Shown here: positions 32,372 to 59,844 of the stretch, in pieces
How positions within the stretch are numbered: the first letter of the stretch is position 1
Layout of the letters: each line of letters opens with the position of its first letter
DNA from: Hydrolagus colliei
Taxonomy: Eukaryota
Direction of reading: 5' to 3'
Length of the DNA: 64,000 nucleotides
Assembly: GCA_035084275.1 (NCBI GenBank)
Contig: CM068750.1
Location: forward strand, 7,192,001 to 7,256,000
Program-made: the position numbers and the translations under genes
The notes under the pieces: model-generated
What the model was told of the DNA's origin: nothing
The model's database searches: none
The model's input: only the letters and a program-made list of their open reading frames with translations

Positions 32372-33660
32372 ACAACAACAAGAACAACAAAATTCCACTT
32401 GTATAGTGCCTTTCACGTTGGGAGAATGTCCCAAGCCGCTGGACAGTCAATGTTTCAGACCCAAGCTGGGTTGGGATTGGGGAGGTTGCAGGGAAAGGAG
32501 GGGTTGGGGTGACCGATGGAACCATCGAAGATGAGGTTCATGAGGTGGGACTTGAAGGAAGCTAGCAAAGGGATTTAAAGGTGAGGACCAGGATCTTGAA
32601 TTGAATTCTCTGAGTGATGGGGAGCGAATGGAGTTGTGCGAAAATGGAGGAGATGCTGTCACAGAGCTTGGTGTAGGAGAGGACACAGGCTTCAGAGTTC
32701 TGGATCATCTGCAGCTTATGGAAGGAGGAGTTGGGAAGGCTGACAAGCAGGGCATTGGCATAATCGAGCCTGGATGTGATGAAGGCATGAATGAGAGTTT
32801 CAGCGGCCAGAGGGGTGTCATAGTAGTGGAGTCGGGCAAGTGAGGTGAGGGAAAGCAGAGAGGTTCATGGCTTGGATGTGGGGGAGGAAAGCCAGTTGAA
32901 GATCATGAGGGCCTCAGTCCTGGACTTGATGTCTGACAAGCCTTAATGTCTGACCAGGACTTGATGTCTGACAGGCAGTCTGTGAGGACAGCAGTGGTCC
33001 TGGAATCGAGGGTAGAGGCAGAAAGATAGAATTGGGTATCATCCTCACACATGTGGAAGTTGACCCCATGTCTGCAGATGATGTCATCAAGATGGAGCAT
33101 GTAGATATTGAAAAGTAGGGGGGCCCAAAGACAGATCCCTGGGGGACGACCCAAGAACAGATCCCTGGGGGACGCCACAGGTAACAATGTGGAGGCTGGA
33201 GGAGAAGCCGGTGGTGGTGACAAAATGGAGACGGTGAGAGAGGTAAGAGTCGAACGCAAGGGCAGGGCCATGAAGATTGAGGAGGGAGGAGAGATGGTGC
33301 AGGAGGATGGAGTGGTCAACGTTGTCGAAGGCAGCAGAGAGGTCAAGGAGGACAAGGAGGCAGAGAAAGCCCTGATCACAGATGTTTAAAATGTCATTAG
33401 AGACTTTAACCGGGGCTGTCTCCATGCTATGAGCAGCATGGAAGCCGGATTGTAGGGGTTCAAAGAGGGAATGGCAAGAAAGGAAGGAGCGAAGCTGGGG
33501 CGCAACAACTCATTCCGAGGCTTTGTGTAGGAATGGAAGGTTGGAGATGGGGTAGTAACTGTAGAGTAGGGATGGGTCCAGGGAAGATTTTTTCAGGATG
33601 GGGGTGATGACAGCTGCTTTTACAGGAGTGGGAACAGTGCTGGTGGATAAGGAGAGCTTG
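32372..33660 (-). mobile_element. L2 LINE, 5'-truncated, with frameshifted RT pseudogene
   Basis: LLVLLDLSAAFDNVDHSILL, GVPQGSVLG, NFHMCEDDTQFY (YADD motif mutated), YYPISNLPFL; (TTG)n tail at 32372. Confidence 0.95.
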
Positions 33661-49583: not shown

Positions 49584-50320
49584 AGTCAGGAATCTGGGTG
49601 TCTTGTTCGACCCTAGCTGTCCTTTCTCCCCTACATCTGCACCATGACCAGCAGTGCCTTCCACCACTTCTGTAACATTGTCAGAATCCGCCACTGCCTC
49701 ACCTCTCAGGCTGCCGAAATCCTCATCCATGCGTTCGTTACATCAAGACTTGAATATGGAAACTCCCTCCTCTTCAGCCATCTCAACTCTTCCCTTCACA
49801 AGCTGCAGATCATCCAAAACTCTGCAGCCCATGTCCTCTCTCACACCAAGCTCCTTGACCCCTTGACTCCTATCCTCACCCGGCTCCGTTGGCTCCCCAC
49901 CCCCCAGAGGATCGAATTCAAGATCCTCGTCCTCACTTTCAAGGCCATTCATGGCCTTGCTCCTTCCTATCTCACCAATCTGCTGACTCCCTATCAACCT
50001 GCATGCTCCCTCCATTCAGCGGGCTTTTATCTGCTCCATGTCCCACGCCCGACCCATCGTACCATCGGTGGATGGGCTTTCAGCCTCTCTGCCCCCACGA
50101 TCTGGAACTCCATCCCACAGACCTTTTGCCTCAATTCCTCCCTTGCCTCCTTCAAGGCGGTCTCAAGACTCTCCTTTTTGATTGTGCATTCTGCTGCCCT
50201 CCCCTCCTACCCTGCCCCTTCCCCATGCTCAGGTCCCAATCCCTGACTGTTCAGTGCCTTGGGACGTCTTCCCGACGTAAAAGGCACTCTATAAATGTGA
50301 TTCTGTTGTTTTTGTTGCTG
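49584..50320 (+). mobile_element. L2 LINE 3' portion (ORF2 C-terminus and 3'UTR)
   Basis: VRNLGVLFDP, LIHAFVTSRLEYGNSLL, LQIIQNSAA, LRWLP, IEFKILVLTFKAIHGLAPSYL, IWNSIP; tail cccgacgtaaaaggcactctataaatg and (TTG)n. Confidence 0.95.
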
Positions 50321-55121: not shown

Positions 55122-55425
55122 GTGGAGTACTGTAGCTCGGTGGTTAGAGCATTCGCCTGAGAAGCAAGAGACCAGGGTTCAATTCCAGGCAGGTCAGATT
55201 TCTTTACTCCACCAACACGCCTGATAATAATCCATCAAGAAATGATAATAAATTGGCCATTTTTCACGACTGTTTGTGACACAGTGCTGTGCGCAATTGG
55301 CTGCCACGTTTCGCTCACAATATATAGTCAATTCACTTTACGGTATATTCTCTGAAGTACTTTGAGACGTGTCTCGAAGATGTGAAAAGCACTATATCAA
55401 ATGCAAGGATTATTATTATTATTAC
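55122..55425 (+). mobile_element. SINE family A, full length, short variant
   Basis: tagctcggtggttagagc and gggttcaattcc boxes, standard body, (TTA)n tail; flanked by tattattatt on both sides. Confidence 0.95.
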
Positions 55426-59322: not shown

Positions 59323-59699
59323 AGTAACTGAGATCAGATAGCTCAGAACAGAGCAGGGATTAAATCTGAATAAACATGTTTTTATAGTAAATCCTGAGAC
59401 TGTTGTGCTCAGTGGATCACGCCCCCTGAGGTGGAATTCATGACATCAACACGGAAATGATTGTACATCCTCATTCTCAAAGCATGCCCGAGTCTTTCCA
59501 AGTTACAAATTATAGCTTTTTCTCCTGACTGTAGAGGTTCCCTGCAATTTCGGAAAACTCAGGATAAATGTGGCTTTGAAAAATATCAAGCATTTGCCAT
59601 GCACAGAATCGTAAAAAAGGACCTGACTCCTTCCTACCTTTCCTAGCACAACCAAGGAGTATGGCACCATACTCAAATGTGAGTGTAAAAACTGTAAGG

Positions 59700-59808
59700 T
59701 TCAGTTCTGACGAAGGGTTGTAGACCCGAAACGTTGACTCTTTTTCCTTTCTTCATGGATGCTGCCTGACCTGCTGAGTTTCCCCAGCAACTTCTGTTTT
59801 TGTTTCAG
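59700..59808 (+). mobile_element. Penelope-like element terminal repeat fragment
   Basis: tctgacgaaggg...cccgaaacgtt...gatgctgcctgacctgctgagtttccccagca...ttctgtttttgtttcag resembles the Penelope-associated segment common in chondrichthyan DNA. Confidence 0.7.
59703..59739 (+). ncRNA. Minimal type I hammerhead ribozyme motif
   Basis: Helix I AGUU/GACU, core CUGACGA, extra A, helix II GGGU-UGUAG-ACCC, GAAA, palindromic ACGU as helix III, GUU cleavage triplet ending at 59735. Confidence 0.7.
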
Positions 59809-59844
59809 GTTTGCCATTGCTTTCTTCACCTTTAACTGTGGCAC

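What the first reader, a model, noticed from the sequence alone, without database searches (positions are those of the whole stretch)
59703..59739. Self-cleaving hammerhead ribozyme core within a Penelope-type repeat
Seen: AGUU (59703-06) - CUGACGA (59707-13) - A - GGGU/UGUAG/ACCC (59715-27) - GAAA (59728-31) - CGUU - GACU (59736-39). All conserved core nucleotides are present, helices I and II pair, and the NUH triplet is GUU. Established: Penelope-like elements and retrozymes carry minimal type I hammerheads whose helix III is only a short palindrome (here ACGU) and which cleave mainly as dimers. Inference: this lone copy would need a partner in trans, so dispersed copies in host transcripts could form a trans-activated cleavage system or mark a non-autonomous retrozyme-like family.
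Basis: partly seen in the sequence, partly recalled or inferred. Interest (0 to 1): 0.7.

Follow-up and report, generated by a model that had tools for sequence, protein, structure and literature searches.

The report
Penelope retrotransposon end with minimal hammerhead
This motif matches a known kind of minimal self-cutting RNA (hammerhead) and sits in a 110-letter leftover end of a jumping gene with well over a thousand copies in this genome; the ends of those copies suggest they were copied from uncut RNA that likely begins right at the ribozyme.

Summary
The motif is real and fits the published consensus of minimal type I hammerheads in Penelope-like elements (PLEs). It opens a ~110-nt solo insertion (59702-59811, 5-nt flanking repeat) of an RT + GIY-YIG PLE family, probably Neptune-type. 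The genome holds 378 exact copies of the ribozyme 35-mer and 1,628 of the adjacent 35-mer. The retrozyme and trans-cleavage ideas are not supported: no arrays were found, and inserted cores decay at the same rate as flanking sequence. Copy ends are informative. 82 of 92 copies extend upstream of the cut site, so the template was uncut. 5' ends pile up at the ribozyme's 5' edge (28 of 61 within 3 nt in a second sample), in solo, inverted and chimeric insertions. This likely marks a transcript start with run-off cDNA. 54 of 59 inverted insertions pair one long with one short tail. Cleavage and expression are untested. The scan's notes record the same reading in other genomes. Verdict: new member of a known kind; modest interest.

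The parts
59697..59701 (+). Left copy of a 5-nt direct repeat flanking the insertion (probable target-site duplication)
   Evidence: Same 5 letters at 59807-59811; 7 nt with one mismatch. Short, so chance is not excluded.
59702..59811 (+). Solo, 5'-truncated, short-tail end (pseudo-LTR piece) of an RT + GIY-YIG Penelope-like element; starts at -34 relative to the cut site
   Evidence: 95-99% identical matches elsewhere in the genome; longer copies carry endonuclease and RT upstream; the same repeat precedes the ORF start in near-full copies.
59703..59739 (+). Minimal type I hammerhead ribozyme motif
   Evidence: Sequence; fits the consensus in Fig. S3 of PMC4209133; 0 hits in 100 random windows.
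59703..59706 (+). Helix I 5' strand; also where copy 5' ends pile up (candidate transcript start)
   Evidence: The start-site reading is inference.
59707..59714 (+). Catalytic core CUGACGA plus the extra A before helix II
   Evidence: the extra nucleotide is a described min-HHR trait.
59715..59727 (+). Helix II: 4 Watson-Crick pairs plus one U.G pair, 3-nt loop
59728..59735 (+). GAAA core strand, self-complementary helix III remnant (59730-59735) and GUU triplet; predicted cut after 59735
   Evidence: predicted self-duplex only -1.7 (4 nt) to -3.5 kcal/mol (6 nt).
59736..59739 (+). Helix I 3' strand
   Evidence: one pair changes on both sides in a distant PLE family.
59740..59806 (+). Downstream pLTR part, ending at the first (short-tail) of two 3'-end clusters; likely a reverse-transcription start region
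   Evidence: 3' ends cluster at +56..+76 and +91..+111; two internal RT start sites were shown in vitro for an anole PLE.
59807..59811 (+). Right copy of the 5-nt direct repeat, overlapping the element's 3' end (possible priming microhomology)
   Evidence: some family copies carry the same letters here.

Best explanation
This is a minimal hammerhead motif at the front of a 110-nt solo end fragment of a Penelope-like retrotransposon, likely made when the element's enzyme copied an uncut RNA from a start point ~70 nt past the cut site back to the RNA's likely 5' end at the ribozyme's edge, and it is predicted to be inactive on its own. SHOWN: the motif; the RT + GIY-YIG family; the repeat at both ends of near-full copies; most copies span the cut site; a 5'-end pile-up at -32 to -38; two 3'-end clusters; neutral decay after insertion. 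INFERRED: transcription starts at about -33; the endonuclease nicks the target and RT primes at one of two U-rich sites; run-off cDNA then joins the target (solo copy, as here), a second cDNA (inverted pair) or another element RNA (chimeras, longer copies). In the active element the ribozyme would cut only as a dimer or with protein help. A cut at the 5' repeat would remove the first ~33 nt; a cut at the 3' repeat would part the priming sites from the ORF. It would therefore likely act as a brake or processing switch, not as a required step.
For: Family: 378 and 1,628 exact 35-mers, reversed-pattern controls 0. Endonuclease frame directly upstream in L024 and L025 and in the long copies L031-L060, which were selected with that query. 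A 340-aa RT frame finds 241 homologues, best 64% identical. Homologue P0024 passes Pfam cut-offs for RVT_1 and GIY-YIG and aligns along the copies over residues 17-891. Uncut template: 82 of 92 copies chosen by a downstream 35-mer extend upstream of -2; 4 start within -2..+2. Pile-up: of 45 copies reaching -32, 23 end within 7 nt and 2 in the next 18 nt; in a second sample 28 of 61 end at -32..-34, 32 by -38, 10 in the next 18 nt. Of 16 loci spanning the ORF start, 9 are fused to a second hammerhead-tail copy, 6 of these starting at -33..-37. 54 of 59 inverted insertions pair a long with a short tail, none two long. Literature: internal RT starts, ribozyme mutants do not affect insertion, protein-assisted cleavage (PMC11167929); promoter inside the pLTR (PMC2377424).
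Against: No transcript start was mapped, so the pile-up is indirect evidence. The letters at -34..-27 form an imperfect palindrome that could itself focus junctions; a T that fits fold-back precedes 16 of 20 solo copies starting at -34. The cap-like extra G is weak (5 of 9 at -33, p=0.043). A minor second cluster lies at -40..-44 (9 of 61). 10 of 92 copies start at -1 or later and could come from cut RNA. In Drosophila virilis the start lies 46 nt upstream of a 75-nt intron that ends at helix I, not at the ribozyme. Arkhipova et al. 2013 argue for self-priming on an antisense template to explain head-to-head repeats. Pfam matches of this family's own broken frames are below cut-off. Arms of one inverted locus are not independent, so p-values are optimistic.
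Confidence: 0.8

Rival explanations
1. Same PLE origin, but the 5'-end pile-up reflects junction chemistry or an RT stop (fold-back or annealing at the imperfect palindrome at -34..-27, or a protein-bound block), not a transcript start.
For: Non-target T before -34 in 16 of 20 solo copies and short inverted pieces of the core at several junctions; palindromes at inverted junctions are described for rotifer PLEs.
Against: The perfect 6-nt palindrome in helix III draws only 5 of 92 ends. The same end appears in solo copies with clean target duplications, in both arms of several inverted pairs and in ORF chimeras. The sequence just upstream is predicted to be largely unpaired.
Confidence: 0.3
2. 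One reading: the short copies are a non-autonomous retrozyme-like family amplifying through tandem units, dimer cleavage and circular RNA.
For: Retrozymes derive from PLE pLTRs (bioRxiv 10.64898/2026.07.22.740005). Two loci on different contigs (L327, L331) share one junction joining two hammerhead units through ~137 nt of ORF start; L169 and L172 share another.
Against: Only 4 of 92 copies have a same-strand neighbour within 600 nt; 11 strict same-strand pairs within 400 nt genome-wide, none with more than two direct units. Copies are nested truncations of the autonomous element and do not begin at the cut site.
Confidence: 0.07
3. One reading: dispersed copies in host transcripts form a maintained trans-activated cleavage system.
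For: Many intact motifs exist (378 exact) and share one self-complementary helix III.
Against: Neutral decay of the core, including catalytic G8 and G12 at CpG rates; 13 of 45 fully intact. The predicted helix III duplex is weak. Min-HHRs cleave poorly even as cis dimers, and 8 of 9 natural frog dimers did not cleave. No host exon was recognised in the window.
Confidence: 0.04
4. The pile-up marks a splice acceptor (CAG ends at -32), as the D. virilis intron ends at helix I; short copies come from spliced RNA.
For: A pyrimidine-rich tract and CAG precede helix I in long copies; D. virilis precedent.
Against: No shared upstream exon among 120 short-type contexts; longest match to element sense sequence 12 nt. 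24 solo copies starting at -44..-28 have a target duplication within 8 nt of the start.
Confidence: 0.05

Closest known systems
Minimal type I hammerheads in pLTRs of metazoan PLEs (Cervera and de la Pena 2014, PMC4209133; read parts 1-2 of 4 of the text, part 2 of 3 of supplement file 2; file 1 not searchable)
   Same: CUGANGA-H core, G-C first pair of helix II, GAAA-C-G-U-U end as in several listed species, short helix I, most copies lone or in opposite-strand pairs.
   Different: No cartilaginous fish in the alignment part I read; copy-end distributions are not analysed in the parts read.
PAc (Poseidon from Anolis) studied in vitro (Frangieh et al. 2024, PMC11167929; read parts 1-2 of 4)
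   Same: Two internal RT start sites matching the 'tail'; uncut RNA as the main template; both target strands extended.
   Different: There the ORF starts inside the ribozyme; here the likely ATG lies ~140 nt past the cut site. This family has the CX4CxxC linker described for Neptune.
Neptune/Nematis-type EN+ PLEs (Craig et al. 2021, PMC8557442; 12 passages seen)
   Same: RT then C-terminal GIY-YIG, Zn-finger-like linker, partial tandems, 5' inverted copies, a 30-40 nt tail at one end.
   Different: No tree was built, so the clade is a motif-based call.
D. virilis Penelope promoter (Schostak et al. 2008, PMC2377424; 11 passages seen)
   Same: Transcript starts inside the pLTR.
   Different: Its start lies upstream of an intron ending at helix I; here the inferred start coincides with helix I.
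Non-LTR retrozymes (bioRxiv 10.64898/2026.07.22.740005, read parts 1-3 of 5; PMC7229834, search listing only)
   Same: Type I hammerhead derived from a PLE pLTR; no coding capacity in the short copy.
   Different: Defined by tandem units each with a ribozyme; not found here beyond rare pairs.

Membership tests
Minimal type I hammerhead (PLE type) | Core CUGANGA ... GAAA ... UH | tested here: met
Minimal type I hammerhead (PLE type) | Helices I and II, extra nucleotide before helix II, G10.1-C11.1 pair, palindromic helix III remnant | tested here: met
Minimal type I hammerhead (PLE type) | Covariation in helices across related elements | tested here: inconclusive
   6 sequences: 85% of cells paired, 2 pairs change on both sides, score reached by 17 of 500 shuffles. 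The two distant rows are one family; 3 of 5 metagenome loci were left out (one has helix II deleted, two gave no motif).
Minimal type I hammerhead (PLE type) | Self-cleavage, at least as a dimer or with protein | not testable with these tools
   Needs in vitro assay.
EN+ Penelope-like element | Single ORF with RT and C-terminal GIY-YIG | tested here: met
   all copies examined are broken, the domain order is read from fragments and a full-length homologue.
EN+ Penelope-like element | pLTR repeat at both ends, with optional 30-40 nt tail and inverted 5' copies | tested here: met
Neptune clade | CX2-5CxxC linker between RT and EN | tested here: met
   CX4CxxC in several frames; feature. Shared with Nematis, so not decisive.
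Neptune clade | RT phylogeny | not tested
   No named reference sequences at hand.
Non-LTR retrozyme | Tandem array of units each with a hammerhead | tested here: not met
   Lone at this locus; rare pairs only. The strict pattern could miss diverged arrays or units over 400 nt.
Non-LTR retrozyme | Circular RNA intermediates | not testable with these tools

The most novel reading that the evidence does not exclude
In this PLE family the transcript starts at the first base of the hammerhead. Most genomic copies are then 'strong-stop' cDNAs, primed at two fixed sites by a dimeric enzyme (one site per target strand) and run off the 5' end. A jump of that cDNA to another element RNA rebuilds the pseudo-LTR, as in LTR elements, while the ribozyme is a dimer-triggered switch that removes the capped leader.
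Probability: 0.4. Interest if true: 0.6.

Novelty: new member of a known kind. Interest (0 to 1): 0.3.

Why it matters
The motif itself is ordinary: PLE hammerheads were described in 2014. The copy-end pattern matters more. How PLEs regenerate their pseudo-LTRs and what their ribozyme is for remain open in the papers read. A base-level prediction of the RNA start, and the one-long-one-short rule for inverted insertions, make both questions testable with 5' RACE and the existing in vitro PLE assay.

Tried and rejected
Rfam scan: no hammerhead model matched. Loose core pattern: chance level. PDB sequence search with the RT frame: 0 matches. Relaxed patterns for other hammerhead families in the genome (100 of 197 and 100 of 153 matches listed) returned variants of the same family, with no compensatory signal by eye. 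One search had an indexing bug and was replaced. The ungapped conservation table included truncated copies and was replaced. ViennaRNA could not score the hammerhead dimer fold. Pfam scan of 149 of 192 window frames of 66+ aa found only a LINE RT piece and one sub-threshold DUF, which does not exclude an intron location. Lunse et al. (PMC5785218) is not held; only its title and a review's summary were seen. Paper searches for Penelope + shark + ribozyme, + pLTR/transcription start, + solo/truncated, + strong-stop/template switch and 2024+ structure papers listed no paper reporting 5' ends at the ribozyme edge; I saw listings only for most hits, and subscription papers and bioRxiv supplements were not visible.

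Full report
Observation. Helix I has four pairs, one of them U.G. Helix II has four Watson-Crick pairs plus a U.G pair. Helix III is reduced to a self-complementary 4-6-mer, and the cut would follow 59735. The loose core is common by chance (6 vs 6.05), but the full descriptor gives 1 hit in the window and 0 in 100 matched random windows. The motif fits the metazoan min-HHR consensus of Cervera and de la Pena. Rfam has no matching model. As a monomer it is predicted to misfold, with the core paired to the triplet region (-9.2 vs -6.6 kcal/mol).

What it belongs to. Positions below are relative to the cut site (0 = first base after it). Window 59702-59811 matches many places in the genome at 95-99% (40 of 1,187 candidates scored). 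Exact counts are 378 for the ribozyme 35-mer and 1,628 for the downstream 35-mer, with reversed controls at 0. Longer copies run upstream through a pyrimidine-rich 3' UTR into a GIY-YIG endonuclease frame, a CX4CxxC linker and an RT frame. The family's own frames are broken and score below Pfam cut-offs. The RT frame finds 241 homologues, best 64% identical to a shark protein. Homologue P0024 carries both domains above cut-off and aligns along the copies. Part or all of the same repeat stands 5' of the ORF in 7 of 30 loci fetched with an ORF-start query, and the likely ATG lies about 140 nt past the cut site. This is the pseudo-LTR organisation of an EN+ Penelope-like element. The linker suggests Neptune, without a tree. 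The window copy is a solo, short-tail piece from -34 to about +73, flanked by a 5-nt direct repeat.

Is the fold conserved? A distant PLE family from a metagenome (37-50% endonuclease identity) has the same core at the same place behind the endonuclease, with different helix letters. On six aligned sequences 85% of cells pair and two pairs change on both sides, but the signal is weak (17 of 500 shuffles). Within this genome inserted copies decay neutrally: 11 of 405 core non-CpG letters differ vs 17 of 585 downstream, and 13 of 90 at catalytic CpG guanines vs 31 of 180 at other CpG sites. 26 of 45 keep the core and 13 of 45 keep everything. Selection therefore appears to act on source elements, not on dispersed copies.

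What the copy ends show. Sample 1 is 92 of the first 100 listed matches to the downstream 35-mer on contig C1. 22 start upstream of -38, 48 at -38..-21, 12 at -20..-3, 4 at -2..+2 and 6 later. There is no peak at the cut site, so uncut RNA was the usual template, as found in vitro for the anole element. Sample 2 is 61 ribozyme matches from 60 other regions, intact from -32 by selection. 28 end at -32..-34, 32 by -38, 10 in the next 18 nt and 19 further up. The same boundary recurs in chimeras: of 16 loci spanning the ORF start, 9 join ORF sequence of varying length directly to a second ribozyme-tail copy, 6 of them at -33..-37. 3' ends form two clusters about 35 nt apart. Half of sample 1 (46 of 92) has a head-to-head inverted partner, and 54 of 59 inverted loci across both samples pair a long with a short tail, although solo copies use both tails about equally. 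The literature notes the one-sided tail qualitatively.

Mechanism (inferred). The simplest reading is an RNA whose 5' end lies at helix I. RT primes at one of two U-rich sites, runs off after 105-140 nt, and the cDNA end joins the target, a second cDNA or another RNA. The long copies read CCAGTTC across -35..-29, which fits the vertebrate initiator pattern as I recall it (not from a call). A cap-like extra G is only weakly seen (5 of 9, p=0.043; two with clean duplications). A fold-back at the imperfect palindrome at -34..-27 is a real rival (16 of 20 copies with a non-target T). A splice-acceptor origin found no support. On this layout a cut would remove the leader or separate the priming sites from the ORF, so the ribozyme would restrain rather than drive copying. 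None of this was tested on RNA.

A retrozyme needs tandem units. 4 of 92 copies have a same-strand neighbour within 600 nt, and a strict genome-wide pattern finds 11 pairs within 400 nt, none with more than two direct units. Two shared junctions (L327/L331, L169/L172) hint at rare two-ribozyme derivatives. A trans-cleavage system is argued against by neutral decay, a weak helix III duplex and low activity of such motifs even in cis. Whether the window copy is transcribed is unknown; no host exon was recognised among 149 of 192 frames scanned.

Novelty. PLE hammerheads are known, and this is one more family member. I reached the start-site reading before consulting the scan's notes. Those notes record the same reading in several other genomes and one opposite case with copies starting at the cut site; I took the term 'strong-stop' from one of them and then tested it with the chimeras. 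They are unchecked AI notes, not independent support. My paper searches listed no report of it, with the limits given under Tried and rejected. Score: interest 0.3; the novel reading has probability 0.4 and interest 0.6 if true.

Noticed in passing
window 55126-55197 (+) and repeat families D1-D20: tRNA-like head (Rfam 33.4 bits) next to one of several abundant SINE-like families in the window.
   Followed up: no
window 33090-33509 (-) and 49617-50246 (+): Fragments of a LINE-type element; RVT_1 above cut-off in the first; the two regions share a 272-nt inverted match.
   Followed up: no
L006, L007, L014, L026, L030: Several PLE end fragments are inserted into the same AT-rich segment of the abundant SINE-like family, suggesting a target preference.
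   Followed up: no
L327 and L331; L169 and L172: Pairs of loci sharing one junction that places two same-strand hammerheads about 280 nt or 1.1 kb apart: possible small non-autonomous derivatives able to form a cis dimer.
   Followed up: partly
L293-L295, near the end of contig C1: Three near-identical duplicated blocks each carrying a diverged hammerhead variant.
   Followed up: partly
G000:C3:71.07-71.16 Mb: Six identical hammerhead variants spaced about 17-19 kb apart, implying a large tandem segmental repeat.
   Followed up: no
window 59790-59808 (+): The short-tail end reads like a splice acceptor (pyrimidine tract plus CAG, CTGAC upstream); sense copies in introns could be exonised.
   Followed up: no
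L017 and L019: 1,500 nt of identical flank on a small contig and a large one: likely a duplicated haplotype in the assembly, so counts may be slightly inflated.
   Followed up: no
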